From: an uncultured archaeon
GTDB lineage: Archaea > Asgardarchaeota > Thorarchaeia > Thorarchaeales > Thorarchaeaceae
Length of the DNA stretch: 64,000 nt
Direction: 5' to 3'
NCBI GenBank assembly: GCA_964558645.1
Contig: CAZLEV010000008.1
Span: 64,001 to 128,000, forward strand
The position numbers were made by a program, and so were the translations under genes. Positions 4,605-52,887 of the stretch are shown here, piece by piece. The notes beneath the pieces were generated by a model that worked only from the letters and a program-made list of their open reading frames with translations, was not told where the DNA came from and searched no databases. How positions within the stretch are numbered: position 1 is the stretch's first letter; every line of letters starts with the position of its first letter.

Positions 4605-4748
4605 GTTGATTCGAAAGACGAGAACAGGACTGGAAAGCTCGAGTGGACCTTGACTGGTCTCTCTTGTTCTCTTCAGGAAGGCTTTCCTCTGGCTCAAAAG
4701 AGTTCTTTAGTAACATCTGTTTGTCTGGTTGTGCCGAGGATGATATGG

Positions 4749-6263: not shown

Positions 6264-6265
6264 GA

Positions 6266-7273: not shown

Positions 7274-7341
7274 TCTCAGATAGAACTTTTAATACCTGTC
7301 CCCATGCTGTCTTATCCATCATAAGAGAGTGGGCCAGCGAT

Positions 7342-8031: not shown

Positions 8032-8037
8032 TTGGTT

Positions 8038-13027: not shown

Positions 13028-14572
13028 TTATGACTTCCTTCTGAACCAACCCATTATCTCTCCTATCACGCCCCTATCCGGTTTTCTGAGTGTATGAAGC
13101 CTCCACTTATGTTTGTCAGGTTCGTAATACTCAAGAAAAGCACAGCCATCATCATCCTTCATTCTCTCCATCTCTTGGAGGCGTCCCATCAACCAAGCCT
13201 TTCTTGTTATCGGAACGTTGGAAGTGGTCATGTCGAAGAGATGCGGGTGTAAATCGAATACCAGGGCTCTTTCACTCATATACTCAAGTACACCCTGCGT
13301 GAGTGCCTCACTGATTGTCTCCCGATTTGTGTAGAATGATGCCGCCACTGACATGTTTGGGTGTTTCTCAGGAATATTCAGAGCGAACTTAAAAGAGCGA
13401 TTGAACTTTGAGAGGTGTGTTGCAGCATCGATAAAGAGAATGGTCTCGGGCTTCCCCTCGAATTCATCTTCTAATACTTCTGTTTCTACTCCTGTCAAAC
13501 GATCTTGGTCTTCTCTTTCTAACTCTCCATGGATGTCGCCAATCTCATCGTCCTCGATTACATCATCTCCGCGAGAATCTTTCTTTACTTCTGCTTCAGC
13601 GGCTGTTGGAGCCTTTCTCCTTCTCAGGTGAGGCGGTACATAGCCTACCTCTTCAACAAGATGCTGCAATATTAATGGTAGAAAGAGATCATAGAGTGTC
13701 CCTCTGGTTTCTGTGATCAGTAAGACAGGTTTGAAGGTCTCAACTGCCTCCTGAATTCCGGACTTGTATTTCGAGTCCTCGTCAAAGAATTTTCTCAGGT
13801 TCTCAACAGAGTAGCCCTCCTGTACCCGTGTCTCCCACTCCTCATATACTTCCTTCACTTCTTGCTTTCTTCGGTCCTTGAGGAGTCCCATGAACTTGCC
13901 GAGATACTTGACGCCTCTCGATACGGCAACTGTCGGACTGATGAATACAGTCATGAGGCCTACTGCCTCTCCTGCATATTCGCTGGCCTCAGTGCTTCTT
14001 ATCTTTCCCATGACTTCCTCTGTTAGAGAAGGAGGACCAAGCTTTTCGACCAGAACCTCATGCATTCCCTCAAAGTTCTCAAAGGACGCATCTGCAGGGC
14101 CTATGTCTTCCCCGACCGGGGATGCATCTGACAACACTTCGGCAAACACATTAGGTCGTTTTATCAACCATGCAAGAGGTATCCTGAAAGTCTGGTATCT
14201 GTGCAACCATTCGCGGTCTGAGTCCTTCGGTCCGAAATAGAACTTTTCAGCGTCAGGAAATGAATCGTCAAAGAGCTCCATGAACTGGTGGAATCCTTTT
14301 GGGGTGCTAAGCCCCATCTCAGCACTCTCTAACGAGTCCACCACGAAGACAAGTCCTGATTCTTTCTTCTTTGTGATCGAGGCCATAGTAAGCATGACCT
14401 GTTTGGGTGAGAGGTATAATAGATCGCTCTCTGCATAGGGTGCATCATAGAATGAAAATATCCCCAATCTCTTCCAAGGTCTATCCCGAAGCTTCTCGTG
14501 TGCCAAGTACGAGAACCACTCGTATCCACGCTTGTATCTGGGTATACTCATATCGATTTCAGACTCAGTCAT
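13028..14572 (-). CDS. Hypothetical protein, possibly a degenerate HerA/VirB4-like ATPase fold
   Basis: 514-aa ORF; ILFIDAATHL resembles Walker B hhhhDEAH; no Walker A. Confidence 0.5.
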   Translation of the reverse strand: MTESEIDMSIPRYKRGYEWFSYLAHEKLRDRPWKRLGIFSFYDAPYAESDLLYLSPKQVMLTMASITKKKESGLVFVVDSLESAEMGLSTPKGFHQFMELFDDSFPDAEKFYFGPKDSDREWLHRYQTFRIPLAWLIKRPNVFAEVLSDASPVGEDIGPADASFENFEGMHEVLVEKLGPPSLTEEVMGKIRSTEASEYAGEAVGLMTVFISPTVAVSRGVKYLGKFMGLLKDRRKQEVKEVYEEWETRVQEGYSVENLRKFFDEDSKYKSGIQEAVETFKPVLLITETRGTLYDLFLPLILQHLVEEVGYVPPHLRRRKAPTAAEAEVKKDSRGDDVIEDDEIGDIHGELEREDQDRLTGVETEVLEDEFEGKPETILFIDAATHLSKFNRSFKFALNIPEKHPNMSVAASFYTNRETISEALTQGVLEYMSERALVFDLHPHLFDMTTSNVPITRKAWLMGRLQEMERMKDDDGCAFLEYYEPDKHKWRLHTLRKPDRGVIGEIMGWFRRKS

Positions 14573-34561: not shown

Positions 34562-37276
34562 TTGGAGTCACAGAGAATCACCTTGGTCACAATGTTCCTT
34601 GGAATCCTAGTCTTACCCGGCGTTATTCTTGGCATTGTCATTGCCTCACCCACCAGTCCTTCTCAAGTAGAGAACGTGGTGATGGTTGGTGTAGTGGGTT
34701 CAGAGAAAGCCCCAACAGTGCTTACTTCTCTTCGCTTGGATAGCGAATCAGTATCTGTCAGTGAATACGACAGCGTGAGTCAAGCGCTAAATGGTCCCAG
34801 CATCGATGTTCTCGTTCTTCTGGATACTCCCCTCGGCTCGCAAAGCCTGCCTGAGATTGAGAGCTTCGTTTCTGCAGGAGGTGGCCTCATGGTCTTTCTC
34901 GGACCGGCCATGACAGCGAACTCTACGGGCATGTCGGAACTTGGAATTACCACTAACAACAATCTTCAGGAGAGTGTTTTTCGGGAGTCTGCAAATATAG
35001 TCACACGAACAGTCGCGACAGAACACTCATTATTATCGTTCGACTGGTCCTCTGCTCCGCCAGCCGAGAAAATCGCCCTGCTCCCTGCACTGGATAGTGG
35101 TGCTGAAACCCTCTTGGCAAATGATACCGGATTTGGAACCTATGGGGCTCCCCTTCTCGTGCACCGAGAAGTTGGAGATGGTGCAGTACTGGTATACACT
35201 CCTTGGTTGACTCTGAACAGTGCTGAGGGCGAGACTCAAATCAATCGCGAATTGACGCTGTGGCCCTACTACAACTACTTCATGTACAAATCTGCTCGAT
35301 ATCTCGCGGAACAAGATGCGTACACCTATGCCGAGTGGACCTACTCGCCGGTTCCCCATGTGGAACAACAGGTCATCATCGGATTGATTGTCCTTGTCAT
35401 AGGCATCTCAACTGCAGCATCATACAGGACTGTGAAGAAACGGTCTAGGCGAGAGGCCGAGGTGCTTACTGAGATTGAGCGTGCCGAGCTCCTTGTGGAA
35501 GTGGAGGAGGAAGTCAGCGAGTGGGAGGAGATTGGTATGCACAGGCAGCTTGGTGGCTTCCTCATTCAACTATTCATCACTCTTCTCATCGTCCTGCCCC
35601 GCGTGGTTCTCTCCATCATGATTTACCCTCGCTTCATCATGCCCTTCCCGCAGGCGGCCGGTTGGTTCTCTTTCAGCGTGAACCTCTTCCTGGGTCTTTG
35701 GACGCTGTTTGACTTGGGGACAAGTGTTGCACTCGCGAAGTATTTTGCTGAGTATCGTGTTACAAGACCTGAAGAGGCTGTGAAGTACGCCCAGATCTTC
35801 GTCTGGTTCCAGTGCATTACCGGGGTTGTGCAGATCACGGCGGTAGCCTTCTTCGGATCAATACTCTTTCCGCACACCTATCTTGCTCACCTCTCATACG
35901 TCTTCATAGCACACTCTCTCTTTCAGTTCCCTGGGTTCACTCTGCTCTTCATCCATGTCTTTCGAGGAATGAACCGTATCGATATGCAGCAGATCATCAA
36001 CATCCTGTATTATGCAGTGTTTAACATAGTAGGACCCTACTTCATGATCCTTGTCTTCAGATGGCTCGGTAGCCAGAATCCTATCTTTGGGGAAGCCCTC
36101 GGTGGAGCAATAGGGCAAGCAGTCGGTTCATACTTGACCGAATGGATGACCTTCGGGGTGTCCATCTATCTGTTCAAGCGCCTTGGGTTCAGTCCTAGTA
36201 CACTTTTTCGAGTCGACTTTGACAGTGAACAAGTTCGGAAGGCGCTGAGATTCGGAGCGAAGTGGACTGTAGGAGCCGCAGCTGTGCCACTTGTCTGGTT
36301 CTATCAGATGCTGCTCGTAAGCACGAACCTTTTGAACTGGTCGGCGTTGCAGGGACAGTATCAACTCGCCTGGGACCTTGCCATAATGGTCAGTGTGGTC
36401 GGACTCTTCATGGAGGGTATGCTGGGTGGAATATCTGAGTCATTCTCTCATGCAAAGGAGAAACTCACCGAACTCTACACGGCGCAGGGTCTGAAATATG
36501 GAGCCTTCTTTGTGTTCTGGCTCATCTCAGTGTTGGCTGCTATCGGCCCTCGTGCCATACTTGGCGCCGCCGGGCCAAACTGGGCATATGCGGCACACCT
36601 ACTATGGTTCTTCCTGTTGTTCCAGCTCATGGGTTTCTGGAGCTGGCTAGGTGACTGGATGTTTGCAGGGGCAGATCGAACCGGCCTAGCCGCATCTGTC
36701 TGGATTCTTGAACAGGGCGTTCGAGCTATTGCCATGACTTGGTTCGTTATTACTGAACCAGTAGTGCTTGGGATATATCTCGGTGGCATGCCCGGCATCA
36801 TTGTTGGATACTGTATTGGACTCTTCATCAAAGATATTGTTGCCTGGATTCTCATCAGACGTGAGATCTCTGCACCCAAGCTCTATACCTGGCAGAGCTA
36901 TATCGGACCAGCTCTTGCTGCTCTGATTAACTTCGGAATACTCGAGGTCCTCTCACGGCTGATATGGGGCGGAGTGAATGACCTACTCACTTCAGCTCTG
37001 CTGTTCTTCATCGGCACACTGCCCTCATTGTTCGTCTACTCGTTCTTCAGCGGTCTAACAGGGACCTGGGACGATCGAACTCTGAAGGAGTTTCGTCGAG
37101 CATCTGATATGGTGAGAATGCGAGGAATCGGCTGGCTTGCTCGTAGATTCTATGGTTCCATTGCGCTTGGAGCCAAGCTGTCTCCTCTTCACAACAGGTT
37201 CCCCATCGACATATACGATGAAGCTATGGCTGAGGCTGAAGAACTCACGAAGGAGAAGAAGCAACTGGTCATATAG
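34562..37276 (+). CDS. Large membrane protein: extracellular class-I-GATase-like domain plus MOP/flippase-like multi-TM domain
   Basis: FVSAGGGLMVFLG and G.GAVL ectodomain motifs; about 12-14 hydrophobic helices with DLGTSVALAKYFAEY. Confidence 0.6.
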   Translation: MESQRITLVTMFLGILVLPGVILGIVIASPTSPSQVENVVMVGVVGSEKAPTVLTSLRLDSESVSVSEYDSVSQALNGPSIDVLVLLDTPLGSQSLPEIESFVSAGGGLMVFLGPAMTANSTGMSELGITTNNNLQESVFRESANIVTRTVATEHSLLSFDWSSAPPAEKIALLPALDSGAETLLANDTGFGTYGAPLLVHREVGDGAVLVYTPWLTLNSAEGETQINRELTLWPYYNYFMYKSARYLAEQDAYTYAEWTYSPVPHVEQQVIIGLIVLVIGISTAASYRTVKKRSRREAEVLTEIERAELLVEVEEEVSEWEEIGMHRQLGGFLIQLFITLLIVLPRVVLSIMIYPRFIMPFPQAAGWFSFSVNLFLGLWTLFDLGTSVALAKYFAEYRVTRPEEAVKYAQIFVWFQCITGVVQITAVAFFGSILFPHTYLAHLSYVFIAHSLFQFPGFTLLFIHVFRGMNRIDMQQIINILYYAVFNIVGPYFMILVFRWLGSQNPIFGEALGGAIGQAVGSYLTEWMTFGVSIYLFKRLGFSPSTLFRVDFDSEQVRKALRFGAKWTVGAAAVPLVWFYQMLLVSTNLLNWSALQGQYQLAWDLAIMVSVVGLFMEGMLGGISESFSHAKEKLTELYTAQGLKYGAFFVFWLISVLAAIGPRAILGAAGPNWAYAAHLLWFFLLFQLMGFWSWLGDWMFAGADRTGLAASVWILEQGVRAIAMTWFVITEPVVLGIYLGGMPGIIVGYCIGLFIKDIVAWILIRREISAPKLYTWQSYIGPALAALINFGILEVLSRLIWGGVNDLLTSALLFFIGTLPSLFVYSFFSGLTGTWDDRTLKEFRRASDMVRMRGIGWLARRFYGSIALGAKLSPLHNRFPIDIYDEAMAEAEELTKEKKQLVI

Positions 37277-40946: not shown

Positions 40947-41042
40947 TTCGAAAAACAGAAAGGATACATCAAAACAACCGATATATTCAGAGTCTGCTGT
41001 CTATGGATTCCTCCTAGAAAGGTATTCGTATATCAGACGGAT

Positions 41043-44000
41043 GTGCAGCACATGAGAGATATGAGGGTAATCCTGTCCTGTATGCTAGTACTAGCATTGT
41101 TGGCAGGCATTGCTCCATATGCCGAGGATACACAATCACCGGGTTCTACGTCGTCGTTTGAGAGGCACACGCCCGTGCCAGATGGGTCACAACCACTCGA
41201 AACCGAATCTCTAGATTCCGTGCTTGCTGAAGAAGCCTTCCTTCAGGGTATTCTAAATCCTGCTGTTGTGGAGCAAAGGGGGCTCGTGCTGTCAGACAAC
41301 ACCAGTGCTAGAACAGATACGACGCCTTCACCGACCGTTAGTCTTCCGCTGGATATTGAAAGCTCGTGGGTCTTCAGTGAAGGCTCTATCGAGATATATG
41401 GTCTGGATCGACTCTACGCGGTGAATGGCTCTTTTGATGAAGGTTACCCTGGCAGCAATATAGATCCTAACGGAACGGTCGCTTACTATCCCTATGGCTG
41501 GACAGCAGACAGCAATAGCAGTTCCGCCGATACGCAGATGGCTTCCTATGTGCAGAGTTCTGAGAACTACATACTCGTGGAGAATCAGGGAGAAAAGAAG
41601 CCAGGCACTGCAAACATATACCGTCACTATGCAGGGAGCGCAGTGTTCTGGGAGCAGGAGATATACAATTCCCCTTATACTGAAGACTTCGAATTGTCCC
41701 TTTCTTTTCTGTATGACAGCGGCCCGTTAGGTCAGAATATCGCAGAGGGATGCTCCCTATACGTTTCTATTGATGATGTTCCTGTGTGGACGATAAATCT
41801 CGTCAATCTTACACAGCGAGATGTGTGGTTTGATAGCGGTATAATCGCAATACACTATCCCGGAGCGCCGCTGTCGTTCAACGTGAGTGTCGGTTTGATT
41901 ATCGACAATTTCCTAGAATTGGATGAAAATGATGACAATGATCTAGACGGCAACCCTGACGGACTTGCCAATGCTAAGTACATCACTGTACACATTGATG
42001 ATTTTGCTCTGACTGGAACTGAACCACCATCTTTCGAGAGTGTTGATCTATCGCTGGAAGCCGGTGGTGAGGTCTGCGTAATAACTGGAACCGACGGTCG
42101 CGGAAACGCTACAGTCTACTTTGATCCCCCCCATGATACTGACCCCCTTGTTGTTTCTGTCCATTCCAACACATCTGTAAGATTCAACTTCATAGCAAGT
42201 GCACTTGCTCATCGATTCATCAATTCCACATTCAGTACTGACATTGATGATGAAGGTGTGATGTATGAAACGTCTGCAAACAAAGGTGTGGACCTACTTC
42301 TCTTCACTTATCTTGGCTTTGTCGGCGATTACAGCAACTTTGCCGTGAGAATATATTATCCTGAAGATTGGGATAACGTCACGGTCTATGATCCATTCTT
42401 GAAGGATGTTACATCCGAATGTGCTATCTCTCCTGGTATGGTTGTGTTATCAGGCTCAATCTTGTCCCGGCTAGGTTGGTGGGAGCTGAATCTCCAGTCT
42501 CCTAATTATGCCCAGAGCATCCAGACACAGAAGTACGATTCTGACGTGGCTTCGTGGCTGGACTCAGAGATTTTTCGGACTGACAACAACACACGGGCTC
42601 AAGTCACTATTGCCACCTCTCTGGAAAGCCCTTACCTCAATGACCCCATAAACTTCACGTGGTATCTTCCCAATGGTTCTCTCTGGGTGGGGTACTCGCT
42701 GACTCCGAATTCTGTTGGTACCGTTAACTCCAGCTCACATACAATTGGCGTTGGTAACTCCAGTGCAGGAGAATGGCGCGTCATTATGGCATGGTCGAAC
42801 GGTACTGAAGTGGCTATTGGTGCAGCTAGGTTCGTAGTCGTGCATTCGAGCTCACTCGAAGTGGCCGTGGCCGAGATTGAGGTGACATCAGGAGAAATCA
42901 TCTCGAATTTCGTGAAATTCAGAGATACGGAAACGGGGGAATACCTTACAGAAGATCACATCTCAGTGACTGCGAACTGGACTATTGGCGAAATCACCTT
43001 CACACAGAATCTCGTGAGAAAACGATACGAGGCCGATTTCGATACTTCGGATCTACAGGAGGGCATAACAAGTGTCAACGTCACCGCTGTATCGTTGTAT
43101 CACGATCCCTCCTCGATTCACTTCGTCATCGTCGTGCCCTATGGAACCACTGCCACTCTGTTCGATGTAGATGACGGGGTTGTGGAGGTTGACGTGTTCG
43201 TCGCAACCCCTGTGAATATGCGATACGAAAAAACGGATGGCTCTGGAATCCAAGATGCTAGCATATCTGTGCATTATTCGGGATCTGCAGGGGGTATGGA
43301 ATGGGTTGAAGTGGCCAATGGAGACTCTGGTAATTACACCATTGAGTTCACAGGTAAGGAATCAGGTATCTACGAAGTTGATATCGTCTTTTCGAAATAC
43401 GCGCATGAAGATGCTCACACATCCTTTCTGTTCATCGTTGGAGGACTTGGTTCAGTACTCACTCTGCTGAATGGAACTTCAAAATCAATCGAATACGGTA
43501 GTGACTTCAATCTGTTTCTTCGCTTTGAGAACACTACTGGCTATGGACTTGAGAACGCCAGTATCTCAGTCCAGTCAACTGGAGAAGACGATGCAATCTT
43601 CATCGGTGCAGTATCGGAACTAGGTGGGGGAGATTACTCAGTGTATCTCTCACCCTATGAGGCAGACACATTCACAATCATAGTGGGCGCCTCGACCCCA
43701 ATCCACGATACACAGTATGCCACCTTCACTCTCACTGTGATAGATATCGATATGTCCCTCACCTACCGGCTATCCGCATCAAGCATTCCCATCGGTCGCA
43801 ACATCACTGTCACTCTCGAGCTCTATGATGCGAATTCAGATCCAGTCACAGGTGCATTACTTGAGTTCATCGACCCTCCATCTTCTGCTATTCTTGATCT
43901 ATCTACTAGCATGTACTCAGACAACGGTCGATACACATTCAATGTTTCCTTTATCGAAACGGGTTCTTTCGTTCTGAGTGTCAGGGCGAGCAAAGAGAAC

Positions 44001-45737
44001 CACCGGAATTCCACGAGTGCCATATCCATTGTTGTGACGAATATACCCACTTCATTATCAACATCAGAAGGTCTCAGTTCGGCGGCCATTGAATATGGCT
44101 CAAGCTTGGAACTAGTTCTCTTCTTTGTTCGGACCGACCTCATGGTAAACGTGTCCGAAGCAGTCATCGAGGTTCAGGCAGATGATCTATCAGGATTGAC
44201 TATCTCTATCGTTGAGAATCAATCTGCATACAGGGTCAGAATACGCTCCAACAGGACTGGCCGCTGGGTCTTTACTTTCACAGGAACCAAGATGGACCAC
44301 GACCCGGATCTAATGCAATTCACGCTTGACGTTCAGCTGATCGGCACAGACCTCAGTGGTATAGGCCCACTGAGTTCCATCTATCTCTTGCGTAGCTATG
44401 AGTTACCTTTCTCTTATGAGATGACAAACGGCACGGGAATACTTGGAGCCTCGATATCCAAGTCGGGACCCGGTTCGGAATATGTATCTGTGAGGGATGA
44501 TGGCGAAGGGCACTATTCTGTTCTACTGACACCTGAAGATGTCGGCACTTACTCTGTACGCCTTACTTTCGGCAAGCTGGGCCACAGGTCTCGTGAGTAC
44601 ACTCTGTCTTTCTCAGTGACACCGGTTCCTCTCGAAGTCACTGTAGAGTCTCTCTCTTGGTCTCAGGGTCTTCCTCTGGTGATTGTTGCCAGAGTTGTTG
44701 AGGCCGACACTGATGTCCCTGTTGATGATGCGACGGTGCGATTCCAGCTGTATACTGATAACGCTGTCATAGCAGAGGGGACTCTCAATTCAGTCGGCAA
44801 CGGTGTCTATCGCTCTCAGGTTGATGAGGATTGGATAAATGACAACACTCTGGAATTATCCCTCTCGGTCACAAAGGAGGGCTATGACCTTGAGGTTCCT
44901 GTTGTACTCAGTGTCATTTCGGTGCCAAATCCAGACATCCAGAACTACCAGAACTTCATGACTTACGGTGTTCCCAGCATTGGTGTCTTCGTGTTTGTGA
45001 CCGTGGGTCTGCTGGTCTATCGATGGAGGGAGAAGCGACTGCAGGAACTCCGCCGGCAGAATGCTCACATCAAGCAACGGTTTTCAGATGCCCAGAATAT
45101 CTTGGGTGTTCTCGTGATGCACAAGAAGAGCGGTCTTCCTATCTATTCGCAGGCCATGAAACCAGGTCTCGATGAGGGTGTACTCTCTGCCTTCATATCG
45201 GCGATATCCCATTTCCGGAGCGAGTTTGGGCTGGAAGAGGTCAATAGCTACTCAGCCATCCCGATATCTGATGTGGTTCGGGTTGTCCCAACCGAGAATC
45301 TACTCTGTGCCACTGTCACTCTCACTCCTCCTTCAGATGAACAGGAGGAGCGAATGATTGAAGGAGCGAAGGCCGTTCATGAGAGATTCGATAACCAATT
45401 TGAGGAAACCCCTGTAGAGTTCCGGGATGAGTTCACGGCAGCCATATTCGATCAGATGTTCGAAGAATACTTGGATGGGTATCTCCTCCGGGAGTACCAG
45501 ATCAACTCTGACATGGATGTTCCCAGGAATCTTCGGTGTGTGAAAGAAGGAGTAGAGGCACTCGAGTCGCGCTATTTCAAACTCTCAGGTCTTGCCCGCG
45601 CTATGTCCTCATGTGGATTCAGTGACACCATGATCTACCGCAAGATATGGGACGCGCTAGAGTTTGGGCTACTCATTCGCACGCCCTCATCAAAGCCCGA
45701 TAGAGGTCTTGACTGGGATACACCTATTGAATCATAG
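41043..45737 (+). CDS. Giant single-pass surface protein A: Ig-like ectodomain, TM, cytoplasmic longin-like and winged-helix-like domains
   Basis: Signal peptide; ~95-aa repeats with G.Y motifs; many N-x-S/T; TM ~44963-45020; LGVLVMHKKSGLPIY...LSAFISAISHF. Confidence 0.8.
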   Translation: MQHMRDMRVILSCMLVLALLAGIAPYAEDTQSPGSTSSFERHTPVPDGSQPLETESLDSVLAEEAFLQGILNPAVVEQRGLVLSDNTSARTDTTPSPTVSLPLDIESSWVFSEGSIEIYGLDRLYAVNGSFDEGYPGSNIDPNGTVAYYPYGWTADSNSSSADTQMASYVQSSENYILVENQGEKKPGTANIYRHYAGSAVFWEQEIYNSPYTEDFELSLSFLYDSGPLGQNIAEGCSLYVSIDDVPVWTINLVNLTQRDVWFDSGIIAIHYPGAPLSFNVSVGLIIDNFLELDENDDNDLDGNPDGLANAKYITVHIDDFALTGTEPPSFESVDLSLEAGGEVCVITGTDGRGNATVYFDPPHDTDPLVVSVHSNTSVRFNFIASALAHRFINSTFSTDIDDEGVMYETSANKGVDLLLFTYLGFVGDYSNFAVRIYYPEDWDNVTVYDPFLKDVTSECAISPGMVVLSGSILSRLGWWELNLQSPNYAQSIQTQKYDSDVASWLDSEIFRTDNNTRAQVTIATSLESPYLNDPINFTWYLPNGSLWVGYSLTPNSVGTVNSSSHTIGVGNSSAGEWRVIMAWSNGTEVAIGAARFVVVHSSSLEVAVAEIEVTSGEIISNFVKFRDTETGEYLTEDHISVTANWTIGEITFTQNLVRKRYEADFDTSDLQEGITSVNVTAVSLYHDPSSIHFVIVVPYGTTATLFDVDDGVVEVDVFVATPVNMRYEKTDGSGIQDASISVHYSGSAGGMEWVEVANGDSGNYTIEFTGKESGIYEVDIVFSKYAHEDAHTSFLFIVGGLGSVLTLLNGTSKSIEYGSDFNLFLRFENTTGYGLENASISVQSTGEDDAIFIGAVSELGGGDYSVYLSPYEADTFTIIVGASTPIHDTQYATFTLTVIDIDMSLTYRLSASSIPIGRNITVTLELYDANSDPVTGALLEFIDPPSSAILDLSTSMYSDNGRYTFNVSFIETGSFVLSVRASKENHRNSTSAISIVVTNIPTSLSTSEGLSSAAIEYGSSLELVLFFVRTDLMVNVSEAVIEVQADDLSGLTISIVENQSAYRVRIRSNRTGRWVFTFTGTKMDHDPDLMQFTLDVQLIGTDLSGIGPLSSIYLLRSYELPFSYEMTNGTGILGASISKSGPGSEYVSVRDDGEGHYSVLLTPEDVGTYSVRLTFGKLGHRSREYTLSFSVTPVPLEVTVESLSWSQGLPLVIVARVVEADTDVPVDDATVRFQLYTDNAVIAEGTLNSVGNGVYRSQVDEDWINDNTLELSLSVTKEGYDLEVPVVLSVISVPNPDIQNYQNFMTYGVPSIGVFVFVTVGLLVYRWREKRLQELRRQNAHIKQRFSDAQNILGVLVMHKKSGLPIYSQAMKPGLDEGVLSAFISAISHFRSEFGLEEVNSYSAIPISDVVRVVPTENLLCATVTLTPPSDEQEERMIEGAKAVHERFDNQFEETPVEFRDEFTAAIFDQMFEEYLDGYLLREYQINSDMDVPRNLRCVKEGVEALESRYFKLSGLARAMSSCGFSDTMIYRKIWDALEFGLLIRTPSSKPDRGLDWDTPIES

Positions 45738-45960
45738 CATCAGCCCGATTCAATTCCCTTTTCGGCTCTGTGTGACATCCAAGAGTATGATTTCGCAGGC
45801 TCAGATAGAGGAACAAGGAGTATCTTGTTCGTGTATGATATGATGCTAATAGTTCCAAATCATACGCCATTATCGCCGTTTCCCGCAGCCATTTTCTTTT
45901 CAAAACCAATATATGATGTTTTGACTTATACACAAGTCTCTGAGAACAGATTTGTGACGG

Positions 45961-48900
45961 ATGTGTTGGCATATGCGCGAAATGAGGGTAATATTAGTCA
46001 GTTTACTGTTGATGGGTCTTTCGGCATCTCTTGCCCCACATGTCGCAAATACGGGTTCGCTTCCGGCCACCCCTGATTTGGGGGGAAGTGTTCTTCATCC
46101 TAAGGCTGAACCAGACTGCGTTCCAGTTGGTGAGTCGTTCTCTTGTGTTTCAGAAGACCAAGTCCATCAAGGGCTCCTTGGTCCCCTTCTCGTAGAACAG
46201 CGAGGTTATGTTGTATCAGGGGGTACAACTGCTAGGACTGATCTCAACCCTAGTCCAACCACGGATATACCACTTGACACAGACAACTCATGGGTATTCA
46301 GTCAGACTTCTGTAGAGGTACACGATCTAGAGCGCATGTATGTTGTTAACGGAACCTTCGACGAGGGATACCCCGGTTCCAACGACAATCCTGATGGCAC
46401 TGTGGAGTTCTATCCCTTGGGGTGGACAGCCATCAGCAATTCCTCTAATGCAGAACAGATACAGGTTGCCTCCTATGAACAGACGGTTGAAGAGTACGTC
46501 ACAGTGGAGAACCAAGGAGAGAAAGAAGGACCTAGTGGCAAGAAGTATAGGCATTATGCTGGAACAAGCGTGTTCTGGAAGCAGACTTACAGCAATATTC
46601 CTCAAGTTGAGGATTTCGTCCTAGGTTTCTCTTATCGCTATCTAAGGGGGCCGCTTGGAGCAGCCACTCCCGGTGCTTGTTCGTTGAGGATTGCTCTCAA
46701 CAATCAGGTCTTTTTCTATAAAGACCTCACAGAGTTGGAATCACGGAACACATGGTATGATGTTGAAGACCTGGCAATCAACTATCCTCTTGCGCCCAGT
46801 CAGATCGACATCACAGTTGGTCTATTCATAGACGATACTATGTTGCTGGAGGCTGATGGAGTCTATGGGGATGACGACAAAGCAAACGGAATTGTGAATA
46901 CTGTATACATAACCGCACATGTTGACGACATCACGCTCACAGGCGCGCAGCCCCCCTCTTTCGATCAAGTCGCCATGCAGTATGAGGCAAACGAGACGAC
47001 GGTTGACATCGAGGGCAGTCAGGGCTCTGGAACCGCCACAATTCAACTGACTCCTGTCTATTCGGCTGACCCTCTCACAGTTCGCGTTCTCTGTAACTCT
47101 TCGGTACGATTCTTCTATGAGGTGAGGGCTCTAGCTCACCGTTTCATAAACTCCACATACACCACTGATAATACAGCAGTTGGTGCAGCGTATGAAGCAG
47201 TTCCAAATGGTTCTGTGAACCTGATAACATTCACCTATCATGGGTCGCAGGGAGATTATGAGAACTTCACCATAAGCGCCTACTATCCGAACGATTGGGA
47301 GAATCTGACGGTCTATGATCCCTTTCTTACTGATGTGACCTCTCACTGCTACCTTCAACCTGGGATGGTAGAGATTTCGGGCTCCATACTATCTCGGTTG
47401 GGCTGGTGGGAATTCATCATTGAAGCCCCAAATTACGCAAGAGATGTCAGCTCTCAAATCTACGATTCAGACACTTCTTCTTGGACTTTCTCCGATAACT
47501 ACAGAGTCGGGAATCTGACAAGAGGCTGGATAGACATAGGAACGTCGGAAGATGATACATATCTCGACACCTTTGTGAACTTCACATGGTATTTGCCAAA
47601 CGGCTCCATCTGGTCAAGCGCCTCATTTGTACCAGACTCCTTTGGCCCCTCCACATCAAATCCTCAAGCAATTGAGGCGGAGAATTCCAGTGCGGGTGAA
47701 TGGGTACTCTTGGTTGAATGGACAAATGGGACCGAGGTGGCAGTAGGCTCAGTCAGTTTTACGGTGACACACTCAGGTTCACTGGAGGTCGCCGTTGCTG
47801 AGATTGAAGTGTCACTTGGCGAAGTGATTTCAAACTTCGTCAGGTTCAGAGATGACACAACCGATAGATATCTAACCGAGGAATATGTTACCATCACCGC
47901 GAACTGGACTTCTTCACCAGTGCAGTTTGACCCGAACCTTGTCAGGAACCGGTATGAGGCAGACTTCGACACCTCAGATTTGCCGTATGGCATTTCCGCG
48001 GTAATCGTGACTGCCACTTCAATGTTCCACGATACCAGTTTCGACCAGTTCAATGTCATCTTGCCCTACCCGACAAATGCATCGATTCTTGGAAATGATG
48101 CGGGCTTTGTCGAAGCCGATCTCCTTGAGGCGACAAGTATTACAGCTAGATATACGCGGATGGACAACTCTGGTGTTGAAGACGCCAATCTCTCCATCTA
48201 CTACTCTGGGCCGACGGATGGTCTTCAGTGGGAAGCGGTGCCAGCGGGAGGAAATGGCAACTACACAATCGAGTTCACCGGCGTGAAATCCGGTATTTAC
48301 AGTATTGATGTTCTATTTTCAAAATACGTCCATGAAGATGCTCAGACTTCCTTCCTGCTGTTAGTTGGGGAGCTTGGTTCGGAGTTGACGCTGCTGAATG
48401 GAACCTCTCAGTCCATCGAATATGGAGAATCCTTCCAACTGTTCCTGTTCTTCGAAAATGCAACAGGATATGGTCTGGAGAACGCCACTGTGACGGCACA
48501 GTCCACTTACGGGGATGATCCAATTACAATTGATGATGTGATAGACCTTCGTGAGGGATACTACTCGGTAAGCATCACCCCCTCCGATACCATGACTTTC
48601 ACAATAGTGATCGAGGCGTTTCTTGTCAATTACGAAACTCAGTTTGCTACATTCACCCTGACAGTGACAGAGATTGAGATGACGCTGACTTATGATATCT
48701 CTGCATCAAGTATTGCAATTGGTCGCAATGTTACCGCAACACTGGAGCTGCTTGATAGAAACTCTGAGCCTGTGAGCGGTGCCCTCTTGGAGTTCATTGA
48801 CCCGCCCTCGTCAGCCGTGCTGGGCTCTGTCATAGTAGGCGAGGCAGGCATCTACGTCTTCAATGTATCCTTTACCGGAACTGGAACCTATGTCATCGCT

Positions 48901-51240
48901 GTACGGGCGAGCAAGAGCGCATACAGGAACACAACTACTTCTCTCACCATAGTTGCCACAAAGATTCCAACATCGTTATCGGTTTCAAGCGGATTGAGTT
49001 CTGCCTCCATCTCATTTGGTTCAAGACTCCAGCTTGACCTTCTATACATCCGAACTGACCTTAATGCGAATGTCTCAGGGGCAGTCATCGAAATTCAGGG
49101 TGAAGGTCTCTCTAGTCTGACACTATCTGTGACGGAAGTAGCCTTGTCTTATAGGTTGGCGATAAGGTCCAATTCTACGGGTAGATGGGTCTTGACCTTC
49201 ACTGCTTCACGAACCGACCATAACTCGGATATGATTCAATTCACGCTTGATGTCTTGCCTGTGTCCACAGAGCTTACCGGATCCACTCCACTTGAGTCAG
49301 TGTACATATCTAGAACCTACGAGCTTCCTTTCTCATATACAATGGATAATGGAACCGGTGTTGCCGGTGCTGACGTCATTGGAACCGGATTTGGCTCAGA
49401 CTTTGTAGTATCGAGAGATGATGGTGAGGGCGCTTATACGTTGTTGTTGACTCCCGAAGAAGTTGGTAGTTACTCGGTCAAAATCATGTTCAGCAAGGTC
49501 GGGTTCAGTAGTCGTGTATATACCCTCAGTTTTGCTGTGACCCTCATTCCTGCCTCATTATCAACTTCTGAAGGTATCAGCTCATCAAATCTAGAATACG
49601 GCGCTGTACTGGATTTGGATCTTCTCTACATACGGACCGACCTCAACATGTCTTTGTCAAGTGCTAACATCTCAGTTCAGGCCGCTGACTTGTCTGATTT
49701 GACATTGAGTGTGATGGAATTACCTTCTTCATATCGGGTTCGGATTATGGCCAATAGTACTGGAACATGGGTGCTCACGTTCACTGCATCGAAGTCTTTC
49801 TACTCCTCTGACTCCATCAAGTTCACACTTACTGTTCAGACAATTGCAACAGAGCTTAGCGGAGCGACACCTCTCCAATCGGTATTCGTTTCTCGGGAGT
49901 ACTCGCTACCGTTCCGCTTCGCCCTCCTTAACGGCTCAGGAATTGCAGATGCTTCAATTTCCAAGTCTGGGTTGGGGTCGGATTTCATTTCTGTGGCGGA
50001 CAAAGGCGGGGGCGATTACTCGGTCTTGCTAGCACCTGGCGAAGAGGGCAGCTTCTCCGTCGTAGTAACCTTCAGTAAGCTGGGGCATAGGTCGCGTGAT
50101 TATGCTGTTTCATTCACCGTGGTGCCGATTCCTGTTGAAGTTGATGTAGAGTTTCTGTCCTGGTCTCAGGGTCTGCCTCTGGTGATTGTTGCCAGAGTTG
50201 TTGAGGCAGACATGGGTGCCCCTGTAGATGGAGCAATCGTTCGATTTCAACTGTACTCTGAAAGCGCCTTGATTGCACAGGGTACATTGAGTGATGTCGG
50301 TAACGGTGTGTATCGTGCTCAGGTGGATGCCGATTGGGTCGACGATAACACTCTGAAAGTATCAATCAGCGTTTCAAAAGATGGCTACGAGCAAGAGTCT
50401 TCCTCAGTTGTCAGCGTGATTCCAATCCCCAATCTAGAAGTCCAAGCCTATCAGAGCTTCGTGGCATATGGTGTTCCTGGGATACTTGTCTTCATTCTCG
50501 CTATCATCGGCTTGCAGATCTATCGTTGGAGAGAGAAGAAACAACAGCAATTGCGCCAAGAAAACGACCGCATCAGACAACGGTTCATGGATGCCCAGAA
50601 CATCATGGGAATCCTAGCTATGCATAAGTCGAGCGGTCTGCCAATCTACTCTCGAGCGATGAAACCTGGAATTGATGAGGCAATCCTCTCTGCATTCATA
50701 TCAGCTGTATCGCACTTCAGAAGCGAGTTTGGTCTCGAAGAGGTCATGAACTACACAGTTGTTCCTATATCAGATGTGGTTCGAGTTGTTCCCACTGAGA
50801 ACCTTCTGTGTGCGATGGTCACAGTGACTCCTCCGTCAGATGAACAGGAGGAGCGACTTGTCCAATGTGCGAGAGCAGCTCATGAACGCTTTGATGAACT
50901 GTACAGCGATGCTCCTGTGGAATTCAGAGATGAGCTCACCGCCCAGATTTTTGACCAGCTGTATGAGCAGCACTTGGACGGCTATCTCCTAGAAGAGTAC
51001 CAGTTCAACTCCGACATGGTAGGTTTCGACGAACTCAAATGCGTGAAAGATGGCGCGGAATCTCTTACAAATCGCTTCTTCAGACTCATACGCCTTGCCA
51101 GATCCATGAAATCATGTGGTTATAGTGAAACGATTGTCTATCGGAAGATTTGGGATGCATTAGAAAGTGGGCTGTTAGAGCGTGTGACCTCTCCACGACA
51201 GATGATGTCCTCTGACTGGAGTGCTCCCCCAGAACCATAG
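45961..51240 (+). CDS. Giant single-pass surface protein B, paralog of A with one extra 194-aa module
   Basis: Collinear with A from signal peptide to tail (e.g. GSILSRLGWWE, RYEADFDTSDL, VVRVVPTENLLCA). Confidence 0.8.
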   Translation: MCWHMREMRVILVSLLLMGLSASLAPHVANTGSLPATPDLGGSVLHPKAEPDCVPVGESFSCVSEDQVHQGLLGPLLVEQRGYVVSGGTTARTDLNPSPTTDIPLDTDNSWVFSQTSVEVHDLERMYVVNGTFDEGYPGSNDNPDGTVEFYPLGWTAISNSSNAEQIQVASYEQTVEEYVTVENQGEKEGPSGKKYRHYAGTSVFWKQTYSNIPQVEDFVLGFSYRYLRGPLGAATPGACSLRIALNNQVFFYKDLTELESRNTWYDVEDLAINYPLAPSQIDITVGLFIDDTMLLEADGVYGDDDKANGIVNTVYITAHVDDITLTGAQPPSFDQVAMQYEANETTVDIEGSQGSGTATIQLTPVYSADPLTVRVLCNSSVRFFYEVRALAHRFINSTYTTDNTAVGAAYEAVPNGSVNLITFTYHGSQGDYENFTISAYYPNDWENLTVYDPFLTDVTSHCYLQPGMVEISGSILSRLGWWEFIIEAPNYARDVSSQIYDSDTSSWTFSDNYRVGNLTRGWIDIGTSEDDTYLDTFVNFTWYLPNGSIWSSASFVPDSFGPSTSNPQAIEAENSSAGEWVLLVEWTNGTEVAVGSVSFTVTHSGSLEVAVAEIEVSLGEVISNFVRFRDDTTDRYLTEEYVTITANWTSSPVQFDPNLVRNRYEADFDTSDLPYGISAVIVTATSMFHDTSFDQFNVILPYPTNASILGNDAGFVEADLLEATSITARYTRMDNSGVEDANLSIYYSGPTDGLQWEAVPAGGNGNYTIEFTGVKSGIYSIDVLFSKYVHEDAQTSFLLLVGELGSELTLLNGTSQSIEYGESFQLFLFFENATGYGLENATVTAQSTYGDDPITIDDVIDLREGYYSVSITPSDTMTFTIVIEAFLVNYETQFATFTLTVTEIEMTLTYDISASSIAIGRNVTATLELLDRNSEPVSGALLEFIDPPSSAVLGSVIVGEAGIYVFNVSFTGTGTYVIAVRASKSAYRNTTTSLTIVATKIPTSLSVSSGLSSASISFGSRLQLDLLYIRTDLNANVSGAVIEIQGEGLSSLTLSVTEVALSYRLAIRSNSTGRWVLTFTASRTDHNSDMIQFTLDVLPVSTELTGSTPLESVYISRTYELPFSYTMDNGTGVAGADVIGTGFGSDFVVSRDDGEGAYTLLLTPEEVGSYSVKIMFSKVGFSSRVYTLSFAVTLIPASLSTSEGISSSNLEYGAVLDLDLLYIRTDLNMSLSSANISVQAADLSDLTLSVMELPSSYRVRIMANSTGTWVLTFTASKSFYSSDSIKFTLTVQTIATELSGATPLQSVFVSREYSLPFRFALLNGSGIADASISKSGLGSDFISVADKGGGDYSVLLAPGEEGSFSVVVTFSKLGHRSRDYAVSFTVVPIPVEVDVEFLSWSQGLPLVIVARVVEADMGAPVDGAIVRFQLYSESALIAQGTLSDVGNGVYRAQVDADWVDDNTLKVSISVSKDGYEQESSSVVSVIPIPNLEVQAYQSFVAYGVPGILVFILAIIGLQIYRWREKKQQQLRQENDRIRQRFMDAQNIMGILAMHKSSGLPIYSRAMKPGIDEAILSAFISAVSHFRSEFGLEEVMNYTVVPISDVVRVVPTENLLCAMVTVTPPSDEQEERLVQCARAAHERFDELYSDAPVEFRDELTAQIFDQLYEQHLDGYLLEEYQFNSDMVGFDELKCVKDGAESLTNRFFRLIRLARSMKSCGYSETIVYRKIWDALESGLLERVTSPRQMMSSDWSAPPEP
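48964..50127 (+). repeat. Tandem 582-nt (194-aa) duplication inside protein B
   Basis: IPTSLSVSSG..LDLLYIRTDLN starts at 48964 and IPASLSTSEG..LDLLYIRTDLN at 49546. Confidence 0.85.
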
Positions 51241-52104
51241 TGATCAATGTGGTCTGCCTGATTGGCGTTGCTGCTTGACCCTAATTGCTTCATGTCGAGG
51301 TACAGAATGCCCCCTCTCCCCCTCTCTTCTTCTGGACATGTAGATTCTGTCTTCACAGACTGACGAGAAACGCATCCTTCGGGGCATTATTTCTGGGTAT
51401 TCCTGATACTATCGCTGGATATAGCTCTCTGTATTACGTAGAGAGTAGCCTGATTGCACGCAACCTTATATGCTCTCCAGACGAAGTAAGGGTGTGTTGT
51501 ATCACAGTAAGTGAATAGAACAAGGAGATGGCGAATGATGGCCGAAGAAACAAAACAGAATCCGCGTCCGAGTTCAACTCTGCAGAAGAATGCCGAGGTT
51601 CTGAACGTCCTCTATGGGTTACTGGACAGCGACAGAGAACCAACAGATGATGACGCCCGGACTCTTCGTTACCTCTACTCCAGTTCTTAGAACATCTTAT
51701 GCTCCTCATGTAACAATGAGGTCTTCATTCGCTGTCTCACATGCACCTCCCGGCAGGCGAGACACAGTGGGGCGGGTCCTCTGATTCGTCCCACACCATC
51801 TCCTGGCACCTCACTTCTGAAAGCAGCAACACTTTCCTCGCAAAGCGAATGGATATGTGTGGAGGGAACCTACCCATCTTGTCAACCATCACGTTTCTCA
51901 TGCTCAGTCTGTTCTGGTTGGAGGAGTATCCCATCTGGTACAACATTCTGCGAACAGTCGTTGTATGGGCAATCATGGCTCTCGGACAGACTCTCACCAT
52001 AAATCTCTCCGCGGGCAAGACCCTAGAGGTCCAAGAAGCGGAGAGTAGCAATGACCAAAGGGGCGCAGGTAAGCCTATCAGGAAGCTCCAAGAGTGGATA
52101 GACT

Positions 52105-52887
52105 ATGCCCAGAGTGCGAGTTGTTTCCACCGAATTTCAGTCCGAGGGTGAGATGGTCTACGGCGACTTGGTGGTCCCTGTGGGCGATGGACCATTCCCT
52201 GGGATCTGCAAGTTCCACGGTCTCCCGGGCGGAGCTGACCAGGTGAGTGGCTTCGCAACAGATCTTGCCGAAGCAGGCTTTGCTGTCCTCACCTTTGACT
52301 TCCGAGGATTCAGACGGAGCGAGGGAATATTCTCATTGCCCGGCGAGGTCAAAGATGCTCGCAATGCGGTCACCCAACTTCTCAGCTCGGAATATACTGT
52401 GGATGACTGGCTGGGTGTCTATGCCGCAAGTTTCGGAGGACCTGTGGCGATCCTATCGGCGGCACAGGATGAGCGCATCAGTGCAGTCTGTCTGAGAGCC
52501 CCGGTCTACGACCTCCTCTGGTTCGTGGGTGACCCGATGGTTCCTGCAGAGATGAAGCGACTCATCGCTGAGGGATCTGATGTGGTACATGGATTGACAG
52601 AGGAGACAATGAGTCAGATGCATGATCAGATGTTGGAGGATGCCGCAGGGTATGATCTGTTGCAACTCATCTCCCAGATCTCGCCTCGCCCGTTAATGAT
52701 CACAACAGGTCTTCTTGACAGAGGGATCGACGCAAGTGGTGTTCGGCGTCTATTCGAGGCTGCGAAAGAACCCAAGGAGATGCATCTCGTGACCGAGGCT
52801 GATCACACCCTTAGCAATCCCAATGCATACAGAGAAACATCTAGACTTGTTGTTGACTGGTTTCTGAAAGTCTGTCCATACGGGTGA
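52105..52887 (+). CDS. Alpha/beta hydrolase
   Basis: HGLPG, FDFRGFRRSEG, AASFGG nucleophile elbow, D and ADH triad positions. Confidence 0.85.
   Translation: MPRVRVVSTEFQSEGEMVYGDLVVPVGDGPFPGICKFHGLPGGADQVSGFATDLAEAGFAVLTFDFRGFRRSEGIFSLPGEVKDARNAVTQLLSSEYTVDDWLGVYAASFGGPVAILSAAQDERISAVCLRAPVYDLLWFVGDPMVPAEMKRLIAEGSDVVHGLTEETMSQMHDQMLEDAAGYDLLQLISQISPRPLMITTGLLDRGIDASGVRRLFEAAKEPKEMHLVTEADHTLSNPNAYRETSRLVVDWFLKVCPYG

What the first reader, a model, noticed from the sequence alone, without database searches (positions are those of the whole stretch)
41043..51240. Tandem giant receptor-like proteins linking an Ig-like ectodomain to a cytoplasmic longin-like and winged-helix-like tail
Seen: both ORFs have a signal peptide, 1300-1500 aa of beta-rich repeats with many N-glycosylation sequons, one TM, a charged coiled segment, a ~125-aa domain (ILGVLVMHKKSGLPIY...DEGVLSAFISAISHF...LLCA.VT...AVHERF; A ~45095-45470, B ~50600-50975) and a ~60-aa helical end. 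Established: hhhhh-K-SG-x-hY followed by an amphipathic helix matches longin domains (TRAPP Bet5/Trs23/sedlin, AP sigma), which bind small GTPases and are an Asgard eukaryotic signature. Inference: these are surface or adhesion receptors wired to GTPase or trafficking-type signalling, possibly acting as an A/B heterodimer since longins pair.
Basis: partly seen in the sequence, partly recalled or inferred. Interest (0 to 1): 0.8.

Follow-up and report, generated by a model that had tools for sequence, protein, structure and literature searches.

The report
Giant surface proteins with longin tails
Two neighbouring genes of a Thorarchaeote (Asgard archaeon) encode huge, sugar-coated cell-surface proteins whose short inner tail folds like the longin domains that eukaryotes use to steer membrane traffic; databases leave the design unannotated, yet it occurs across Asgard archaea.

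Summary
ORF A (41043-45737) and ORF B (45961-51240) are 53% identical paralogs. Each has a signal-like N-terminus, a 1,300-1,500-aa all-beta ectodomain rich in sequons, one TM helix, a basic juxtamembrane helix and a conserved ~240-aa tail.

AlphaFold2 models the tail at pLDDT 90. Tail residues 29-158 have longin topology and match solved longins best (AP-3 sigma Z 11.6, sedlin 11.0, synbindin, VAMP7, Sec22). Roadblocks score lower (Z about 8). The last ~65 residues look like an acidic winged helix, but that is not proven. No Pfam or PDB sequence match exists, so the longin call rests on fold only.

Topology is supported across the family: 2.68 sequons per 100 aa outside against 0.17 inside, and +4.4 net charge after the TM.

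The full tail occurs in 76 of 85 genomes of the window's own family (Thorarchaeota by source labels). A diverged form on 1,300-3,000-aa proteins occurs in other Asgard lineages. All are labelled hypothetical or Ig-like.

GTPase coupling and A/B heterodimerisation remain untested. B is missing from this locus in a sister genome. The scan had noted the same design on other genomes.

Verdict: a real, unannotated Asgard receptor-like or adhesin-like family with a longin-fold cytoplasmic module. Its mechanism is inferred.

The parts
41043..45737 (+). Gene A, giant type-I membrane glycoprotein (1564-aa frame; likely start ATG 41052 or 41061)
   Evidence: dN/dS 0.04-0.22 against the sister ortholog
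40980..40988 (+). TATA-like box GATATATTC upstream of A, with a leader shared with B
   Evidence: read directly; inference only
41052..41123 (+). A: signal-peptide-like hydrophobic N-terminus
   Evidence: hydropathy
41220..43142 (+). A: conserved all-beta head (jelly-roll plus Ig-like domains, acidic Ca-loop-like stretch)
   Evidence: AF2 pLDDT 91.2; Foldseek to RPTPmu, Eph and S-layer ectodomains; alignment A2
43143..44912 (+). A: Ig-like repeat stalk (Filamin / Big_1 / YtkA-like)
   Evidence: Pfam; internal repeats
44958..45020 (+). A: transmembrane helix (residues 1306-1326)
45018..45098 (+). A: basic juxtamembrane helix ending in the conserved RF-D-xx-N motif
   Evidence: AF2 helix 2-28, pLDDT 96-97; net charge +5.3
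45099..45488 (+). A: longin-fold domain (tail residues 29-158)
45492..45689 (+). A: acidic winged-helix-like end (tail residues 160-225)
   Evidence: (row 41)
45908..45916 (+). TATA-like box AATATATGA upstream of B
   Evidence: inference only
45961..51240 (+). Gene B, paralog of A (1759-aa frame; the database version starts at 45973)
49558..50145 (+). B: approximate position of the extra ~195-aa repeat pair absent from A
   Evidence: offset between the two BLAST segments
50467..50523 (+). B: transmembrane helix (residues 1503-1521)
50602..50991 (+). B: longin-fold domain (73.8% identical to A's)
50995..51192 (+). B: winged-helix-like end
51535..51690 (+). Conserved 51-aa ORF downstream; whether it belongs to the system is open

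Best explanation
A and B are members of an Asgard-specific family of giant single-pass (type I) surface glycoproteins.

Shown:
- An N-terminal signal sequence, a conserved beta-sandwich head and a variable stalk of Ig-like repeats lie outside the cell.
- One TM helix continues into a basic juxtamembrane helix.
- That helix leads directly into a cytoplasmic longin-fold domain, followed by a small acidic winged-helix-like domain.

Inferred:
- The ectodomain binds something outside, such as another cell, a polymer or a surface.
- The tail is a membrane-anchored protein-docking platform that turns binding or clustering outside into recruitment of a cytosolic partner inside.
- By analogy with every well-studied longin or roadblock platform, the likeliest partner class is a small Ras-superfamily GTPase or one of its regulators. 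This genome encodes dozens of these.
- The acidic winged-helix-like end would be a second protein-binding surface, not a DNA binder.
For: Architecture and topology:
- Across 59 full-length members, sequons run at 2.68 per 100 aa outside (2.3 times the shuffled expectation) and 0.17 inside (half the expectation).
- Net charge is +4.4 after the TM and -0.9 before it.

Fold:
- AF2 on 50 tails gives pLDDT 90.4 and pTM 0.85. The order of elements is beta-beta-alpha-beta-beta-beta-alpha-alpha, then beta-alpha-alpha-alpha-beta.
- An all-against-representatives structural search puts longins in the top 25 rows: AP-3 sigma Z 11.6 (118 aa, 2.8 A), sedlin 11.0, TRAPPC2L 10.7, synbindin 10.6, VAMP7 10.4, Sec22 10.1, all spanning model residues 28-159.
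- Roadblocks reach only Z 8-8.5 over residues 24-128. Foldseek agrees.

Constraint:
- The longin core (beta1-beta2-alpha1, beta5) is the most conserved part.
- dN/dS is 0.105 for the longin part and 0.039 for the WH-like part.
- The WH-like part is acidic: mean net charge -2.8, third helix -1.4.

Distribution:
- The full module is in 76 of 85 genomes of the window's own family, at 1-6 copies per genome.
- In the 8 genomes inspected from 5 other Asgard families, 7 put the best match in an open frame of 1,300-3,000 aa, and the eighth is cut by a contig end. The four frames read in full that have a second hydrophobic segment (of five fetched) show a hydrophobic N-terminus in three, a sequon-rich ectodomain, one TM and the tail.

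Context for the GTPase idea:
- The genome has 28 Ras-family, 14 Robl_LC7 and 2 TRAPP/Bet3 matches.
- Longin and roadblock dimers are described as GTPase platforms, also in Asgard archaea (PMC10933270).
- Asgard GTPases and their regulators are generally not in operons (same paper), so the lack of a linked gene is expected.
Against: - No sequence-profile link to any longin family: Pfam, NCBIfam and PDB sequence searches on the tail are empty.
- No GTPase, roadblock or Bet3 gene is a conserved neighbour.
- Some longins, such as those of SNAREs and SRX, do other jobs. A shared fold does not show a shared function.
- Ligand binding by the ectodomain is unshown. Its structural matches are generic arrays of beta-sandwiches with low TM-scores.
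- All structures here are predictions.
Confidence: 0.5

Rival explanations
1. The protein is a structural surface coat or adhesin (an S-layer substitute). The ectodomain is the functional part, and the longin-WH tail only anchors, positions or sorts the protein, for example by tying it to the cytoskeleton or ESCRT machinery or into cell protrusions. No signal is passed inward.
For: The head and stalk resemble S-layer and adhesin arrays: Haloferax S-layer 7ptp E 1e-8, Nitrosopumilus S-layer, Bap, PrgB. Genomes carry 1-6 often tandem paralogs with variable repeat number, as is typical of surface-protein families. A cultured Lokiarchaeon lacks an ordered S-layer and shows 'complex surface proteins' protruding from the membrane (PMC9834061).
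Against: A 240-aa folded tail under stronger constraint than the ectodomain is more than a passive anchor would need (longin identity 73.8% between A and B against 51.6% for the head; dN/dS 0.04-0.10). Known archaeal S-layer anchors are a TM or a lipid anchor with a short tail (general knowledge).
Confidence: 0.28
2. The tail's alpha/beta domain is a cytoplasmic small-molecule or peptide sensor, or a plain dimerisation module, that only shares the generic roadblock/longin/profilin-type sandwich. It has no link to GTPases.
For: There is no sequence-family membership. Roadblock, longin and profilin share one core (PMC10933270). The same genome has soluble proteins that begin with a related domain fused to other unknown parts. 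Atlas neighbours include HTH-, V4R- and response-regulator-bearing clusters, as leads only.
Against: The two C-terminal helices specific to longins are present, and longins outscore roadblocks by about 3 Z units. No ligand-binding pocket family appears among the matches.
Confidence: 0.14
3. The protein is a membrane-tethered transcription regulator of the ToxR/CadC kind, or one released by intramembrane proteolysis. The ectodomain senses, the longin domain dimerises, and the C-terminal winged helix binds DNA.
For: The order of elements at the C-terminus fits a winged helix-turn-helix. Atlas neighbours with TrmB or HTH_47 domains in Thorarchaeota are leads only.
Against: The WH-like region is acidic across the family (mean net charge -2.8). 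Its third helix is also acidic (-1.4), and its conserved residues are Glu and Ala rather than basic or polar DNA readers. No Pfam HTH family matches in more than 1 of 50 members.
Confidence: 0.06

Closest known systems
Longin subunits of TRAPP (sedlin/TRAPPC2, TRAPPC2L, synbindin/TRAPPC4, Bet5/TRAPPC1) and sigma/mu-N subunits of AP adaptor and COPI complexes
   Same: They share the beta2-alpha-beta3-alpha2 fold over the whole domain (Z 10.5-11.6, 115-127 residues, rmsd 2.8-3.4 A) and the cytosolic location at a membrane.
   Different: Those are small soluble subunits of multi-protein complexes. Here the domain is covalently joined through a TM helix to a >1,300-aa ectodomain. No sequence-profile match exists, and partners are unknown.
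Longin SNAREs (VAMP7, Sec22b, Ykt6)
   Same: A longin domain and a single membrane anchor sit in one polypeptide (Z 10.1-10.4).
   Different: SNAREs are tail-anchored: the longin is N-terminal, a SNARE motif follows, and there is no ectodomain. Here the order is reversed, there is no SNARE motif, and the ectodomain is giant.
Asgard longin/roadblock proteins and GTPase fusions (Lokiarchaeota Roadblock-Longin 8yqg, LokiRagM 9m28, Roadblock3 9jue; Roadblock/longin asCOGs of Liu et al.)
   Same: Same phylum and same fold superfamily (Z 8.5-9.3). The reference list of PMC10933270 traces the idea of domain shuffling of longins in Asgard archaea to bioRxiv 2020.10.19.343400, which reports 130 Roadblock/longin asCOGs and fusions with two-component domains.
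   Different: The described forms are soluble or fused to GTPase, DENN, TRAPPC3 or two-component domains. I found no description of a fusion to a signal peptide, giant ectodomain and TM. The asCOG tables were not available to me.
Eukaryotic single-pass adhesion receptors (RPTPmu, Eph receptors)
   Same: An N-terminal jelly-roll head plus Ig/FN3-type array, one TM and a folded cytoplasmic output domain. These are the best Foldseek rows for the head (E 3.5e-9 and 9e-8).
   Different: The match is in overall layout only (TM-scores below 0.2). The output domain is a longin fold, not a kinase or phosphatase.
Archaeal S-layer glycoproteins (Haloferax csg, Nitrosopumilus SLP)
   Same: Heavily N-glycosylated arrays of Ig-like domains anchored at the C-terminus.
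   Different: S-layer proteins lack a conserved folded cytoplasmic domain.

Membership tests
Longin-fold domain (structural superfamily) | Topology beta1-beta2-alpha1-beta3-beta4-beta5-alpha2-alpha3 | tested here: met
   DSSP of the AF2 model: E29-36, E42-47, H54-71, short strand about 82-83, E88-92, E96-102, H108-125, H139-152 (pLDDT 90.4).
Longin-fold domain (structural superfamily) | Whole-domain superposition on solved longins, better than on the sister folds | tested here: met
   Top 25 rows are longins, Z 8.9-11.6 over model residues 28-159. Roadblocks reach Z 7.7-8.5 over residues 24-130.
Pfam longin families (Longin PF13774, Sybindin PF04099, Sedlin_N PF04628, Clat_adaptor_s PF01217) | Profile-HMM match at or near the curated cut-off | tested here: not met
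   No family at E<=1 for tail A or B. No longin family in any of 50 tails. PDB sequence and profile searches were empty.
Longin/roadblock GTPase platform (functional class) | Dimerises and binds a small GTPase or acts as a GEF/GAP scaffold | not testable with these tools
   No valid binding test was obtained. This needs biochemistry or a screened multimer prediction.
Roadblock/LC7 (PF03259) | alpha-beta-beta-alpha-beta-beta-beta with an N-terminal helix, and a profile match | tested here: inconclusive
   There is no Pfam match. A helix does precede beta1 (the juxtamembrane helix), and roadblocks align at Z about 8. But two C-terminal helices of longin type are present.
Winged helix(-turn-helix) | Three-helix bundle with a beta wing | tested here: inconclusive
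   H171-182, H190-200, H204-217 and E220-222 plus E160-163 fit. Only one structural row covers it (6ec8_A, Z 7.9, 75 aa, 2.3 A). There is no HTH family in Pfam. The domain was not folded and searched on its own.
Type I single-pass membrane glycoprotein | N-terminal signal, one TM, positive-inside, glycosylation sites confined to the ectodomain | tested here: met
   No dedicated topology predictor was available.
NPRL2-like longin proteins of Asgard archaea (asCOG class of Liu et al.) | Assignment to those asCOG profiles | not tested
   The asCOG profiles and tables were not available. GATOR1 and SEA longin chains align at Z 7.6-8.5, lower than AP and TRAPP longins.

The most novel reading that the evidence does not exclude
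Asgard archaea possess a phylum-wide class of single-pass surface receptors whose built-in cytoplasmic longin platform directly recruits or regulates small GTPases (or a TRAPP/adaptor-like assembly) when the giant ectodomain engages a partner cell or surface. That would be a prokaryotic forerunner of eukaryotic receptor-to-GTPase signalling and cargo-adaptor coupling. It could be the molecular identity of the 'complex surface proteins' seen on cultured Lokiarchaea.
Probability: 0.2. Interest if true: 0.9.

Novelty: new variant of a known kind. Interest (0 to 1): 0.7.

Why it matters
Longin and roadblock domains and small GTPases are among the eukaryotic signature proteins of Asgard archaea, yet what they do in cells without endomembranes is an open question. 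A conserved family that wires a longin fold to the cell surface through one TM helix gives that question a concrete place to start: the plasma membrane, under a giant adhesin-like ectodomain.

The family is also a candidate for the unexplained surface densities of Lokiarchaea, and for the cell-cell contacts invoked in syntrophy-based models of eukaryogenesis.

Diverged members occur in three closed genomes of another Asgard family. Two of these have sizes that match the published genomes of the two cultured Lokiarchaea, but that is a guess from size alone. If it holds, the idea can be tested by pull-downs, tagging and cryo-tomography rather than only in silico.

Tried and rejected
- Complex prediction of tail A with tail B gave no verdict (ipSAE 0.00 in both runs, controls not run). 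It says nothing for or against dimerisation.
- Pfam and NCBIfam on the tails found nothing. Single weak hits in 1 of 50 members (MAPKK1_Int 0.074, Crp 0.035, Mnd1 0.12) are noise.
- PDB sequence and profile searches found nothing meaningful (best E 0.18).
- The search for related loci with alignment A1 failed for lack of a conserved 7-10 column stretch. With the single tail it found only the sister genome.
- Searches of the own genome with Pfam Sybindin, Sedlin_N and Longin found nothing above the cut-offs, and the Sybindin control rang nowhere. No bona fide longin alignment could therefore be built for a profile-profile test.
- Seven literature searches found no paper describing a TM-anchored giant protein with a longin tail. 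The supplement tables of the asCOG paper are not held, so prior cataloguing of the tail domain cannot be excluded.
- The careful ML tree did not finish in 300 s, so the quick IQ-TREE tree was used.
- Rejected idea: that A and B are an anciently conserved heteromeric pair.
- Considered unlikely: that the WH-like end binds DNA, on charge grounds.
Full report
THE GENES. The window holds two same-strand frames, A (41043-45737, 1564 aa) and B (45961-51240, 1759 aa). The protein library carries them as 1561 and 1755 aa, starting at ATG 41052 and 45973. They are paralogs, 53% identical over 1,212 residues, and B has about 195 extra residues of stalk repeat. Each is preceded by a TATA-like box (40980-40988 and 45908-45916) and a similar leader, so each probably has its own promoter. 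The neighbours are housekeeping archaeal genes: ATP-dependent DNA ligase, PTPS and GTP cyclohydrolase FolE2 upstream; an alpha/beta hydrolase and MetRS downstream.

TOPOLOGY. Each protein has a hydrophobic N-terminus and one later hydrophobic segment (A 1306-1326, B 1503-1521), followed by Arg/Lys-rich sequence. Sequons split 29 outside / 0 inside in A and 30 / 1 in B.

The same holds across 59 full-length family members. The ectodomains carry 2.68 sequons per 100 aa, 2.3 times what shuffled ectodomains give. The tails carry 0.17 per 100 aa, half the shuffled expectation. Net charge is +4.4 in the 15 residues after the TM and -0.9 before it. This is the signature of a type I membrane glycoprotein with a cytoplasmic C-terminus. 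No dedicated topology predictor was available.

THE ECTODOMAIN. Pfam finds only Filamin and YtkA-like Ig-type repeats above their cut-offs, plus weaker Big_1, Invasin_D3 and CarboxypepD_reg matches. The first ~640 residues are conserved across the family at 30-40% identity, with many invariant Trp, Gly and Asn. AF2 models them as all-beta at pLDDT 91.2. Foldseek returns multi-domain ectodomains and surface arrays: RPTPmu, Eph receptors, Haloferax and Nitrosopumilus S-layer proteins, Bap and PrgB. E-values reach 3.5e-9, but TM-scores are low. The layout is a jelly-roll head plus Ig-like domains, and no specific family is implied. The number of stalk repeats varies between paralogs, which range from 1,056 to 2,342 aa.

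THE TAIL. A search of 1.84 billion representatives with the 240-aa tail of A found 144 clusters, 81 at E<=1e-30, nearly all at the C-terminus of 1,100-2,300-aa proteins or of their fragments. An alignment of 50 tails (A1) shows invariant D25, G40, F60, A63 and F67. It also shows conserved motifs: RF-D-xx-N at the end of the juxtamembrane helix, SG-L-P-x-Y-S, SAF-I-x-A-I-x-x-F-R-x-E and P-I-S-D.

AF2 on this alignment gave pLDDT 90.4 and pTM 0.85. The model reads as follows:
- a long helix (2-28) continuing from the membrane;
- strands 29-36 and 42-47, then helix 54-71;
- three further strands, ending at residue 102;
- helices 108-125 and 139-152, which complete the longin order of elements;
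- a small unit made of strand 160-163, helices 171-182, 190-200 and 204-217, and strand 220-222.

An exhaustive structural comparison with 48,161 PDB representatives put longins in the top 25 rows:
- AP-3 sigma, Z 11.6 (118 residues, 2.8 A);
- sedlin, Z 11.0;
- TRAPPC2L, Z 10.7;
- synbindin, Z 10.6;
- Trs20, Z 10.5;
- VAMP7, Z 10.4;
- Sec22, Z 10.1;
- mu and delta-COP N-domains and SRX.
All of these span model residues 28-159. Roadblocks (MglB, Asgard Roadblock3, MglC) score Z 7.7-8.5 over residues 24-130 only.

The tool notes that models without a true match typically top out at Z 7-8, so 11.6 with a uniform family of hits is meaningful. Foldseek gives the same families.

The longin call is therefore supported at fold level. 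It is not supported at sequence-family level: Pfam, NCBIfam and PDB sequence and profile searches are all empty.

The C-terminal unit has the element order of a winged helix. Its only structural row is a sub-domain of TbtB (Z 7.9, 75 aa, 2.3 A), and it has no HTH profile match. It is acidic across the family (mean net charge -2.8; third helix -1.4), which argues for protein binding rather than DNA binding. I rate 'winged-helix-like' as plausible but unproven.

CONSTRAINT. Against the ortholog in a sister genome (L006), dN/dS is 0.146 for the head, 0.221 for the stalk, 0.105 for the longin part and 0.039 for the WH-like part. Between A and B the longin domain is the best-conserved region (73.8%, against 51.6% for the head), and synonymous sites are saturated. 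Both genes are thus real, both are under purifying selection, and the tail is the most constrained part.

WHO HAS IT. Source labels on close relatives read Candidatus Thorarchaeota. The genome has 28 Ras-family matches (15 at E<1e-33), 14 Robl_LC7 matches and 2 TRAPP/Bet3 matches.

A profile of A1 run over 400 genomes of the phylum matched 250 at E<=1e-10. The full module (E<1e-60, covering positions 2-231) is present in 76 of 85 genomes of the window's own family. It occurs there at 1-6 copies, in frames of 1,100-2,260 aa.

Other families match at E 1e-11 to 1e-26. In the 8 genomes inspected from 5 such families, 7 put the best match in an open frame of 1,300-3,000 aa, and the eighth is cut by a contig end. 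Of five such frames read in full, four have a giant sequon-rich ectodomain (36-59 sequons), one TM, a basic stop-transfer and a recognisably related tail, and three of these four start with a hydrophobic N-terminus. The fifth showed only the N-terminal segment at the hydropathy threshold used.

Labels on that distant branch include Lokiarchaeota, Harpocratesius, Sigynarchaeota, Hermodarchaeota and Hodarchaeota. Their names are only 'hypothetical protein', 'Ig-like domain-containing protein' or 'carboxypeptidase-like regulatory domain-containing protein'. Several families of the phylum have no match (0/31, 0/22, 0/12).

Three closed genomes of one such family carry members.

TANDEM PAIRS. Same-strand pairs 4-6 kb apart recur in many genera. 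In a quick ML tree of 61 tails, A, its sister-genome ortholog and B form one clade with 100% support. A/B is therefore a duplication within this genus. In another genus the tandem partners belong to different, older paralog clades.

At the syntenic locus (ligase-PTPS-FolE2-[giant]-...-MetRS), two other genera have a single gene. The sister genome has the A ortholog followed directly by the downstream small ORF, with no B. Because A/B synonymous sites are saturated while A and its ortholog differ by dS 0.2-0.4 over most of their length, B predates that split and is missing from the locus in the sister genome.

Nothing here supports an obligate A/B heterodimer, and nothing excludes one. The one complex prediction gave no verdict; it is listed only under Tried and rejected.

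NEIGHBOURHOOD. No GTPase, roadblock or Bet3 gene is a conserved neighbour. This matches the published remark that Asgard GTPases and their regulators are generally not in operons (PMC10933270).

LITERATURE. Asgard longin and roadblock proteins are well known. bioRxiv 2020.10.19.343400 reports 130 Roadblock/longin asCOGs, fusions of longin to GTPases, and fusions of NPRL2-like longins to two-component domains. PMC10933270 gives structures and states that longin and roadblock dimers are GTPase platforms. PMC9834061 reports that a cultured Lokiarchaeon lacks an ordered S-layer and bears 'complex surface proteins'. In seven searches I found no description of a giant ectodomain-TM-longin protein. 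The asCOG tables were not available, so the tail domain may already sit unremarked in an asCOG.

Earlier first-stage notes of this scan saw the same design on this stretch and on three other windows of two other genomes. None had been followed up.

INTERPRETATION. Shown: the architecture, the topology, the longin fold of the tail (as a prediction), purifying selection, and a wide Asgard distribution. Inferred: the function.

I commit to a membrane-anchored docking platform. The ectodomain engages something outside, and the rigid TM-juxtamembrane helix couples it to the longin domain. That domain, probably as a dimer as in other longins, recruits a cytosolic partner, most likely a small GTPase or its regulator. 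The acidic WH-like end is a second protein-binding surface.

I give this 0.5 overall, and about 0.2-0.3 for the GTPase link specifically. The main rival is a structural coat or adhesin whose tail only anchors or sorts it (0.28). Next come a generic sensor or dimerisation domain (0.14) and a membrane-tethered transcription factor (0.06).

VERDICT. This is a real family, unannotated and undescribed as far as I could find, that combines known folds in a new way. It is a new variant of a known kind and of high interest for Asgard cell biology. Its mechanism is still open.

Noticed in passing
window 51535-51690 (+): A 51-aa ORF about 300 bp downstream of B is 80% identical across three genera in which the giant gene is only ~30-35% identical. 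It is single copy in 65 of 86 genomes of the family (22 of 23 high-quality ones). It has no Pfam match and is always labelled hypothetical, nearly always under Thorarchaeota labels. In at least 36 genomes it lies 0.26-3.5 kb downstream, on the same strand, of a giant gene with a longin tail (coordinates). It was not found in 5 genomes of other Asgard families. The whole block is syntenic, so functional coupling is open. It is a candidate partner worth a binding test.
   Followed up: partly
L006 (sister genome contig), 249-8823: The same locus in a genome of the same genus reads: A ortholog (1565 aa, tail 92% identical), the 51-aa ORF, a hydrolase and MetRS. No B gene lies in between.
   Followed up: yes
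own genome contig C9 at 122168-122548, contig C11 at 14152-14532, contig C1 at 257765-258049 (loci L003-L005): Soluble proteins of 299 and 430 aa begin with a related longin-like domain (E 1.4e-9 and 0.004) followed by parts with no Pfam match. The C9 and C11 copies score identically, which suggests a duplicated contig end or contamination (the genome is rated 6.3% contaminated).
   Followed up: partly
window 40980-40988 and 45908-45916: TATA-like boxes preceded by CAAAAC, together with a conserved leader and start region (GACGGATGTG...ATGAGGGTAAT), occur upstream of both A and B. The duplication therefore included the promoter. The true start may be the MRVIL methionine (41061 and 45982).
   Followed up: no
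window 34562-37276 (+) and 51741-52151 (+): Two ORFs have no credible family. The 904-aa ORF has only a weak ABC_transp_aux match (E 0.015). The 136-aa ORF has a weak HlyIII match (E 0.033).
   Followed up: no
A residues about 290-310 (window about 41910-41970): An acidic Asp/Asn-rich loop in the head follows the family consensus D-Y-D-x-D-xxx-D-G. It resembles a calcium-binding loop, as earlier notes on other genomes also remarked.
   Followed up: no
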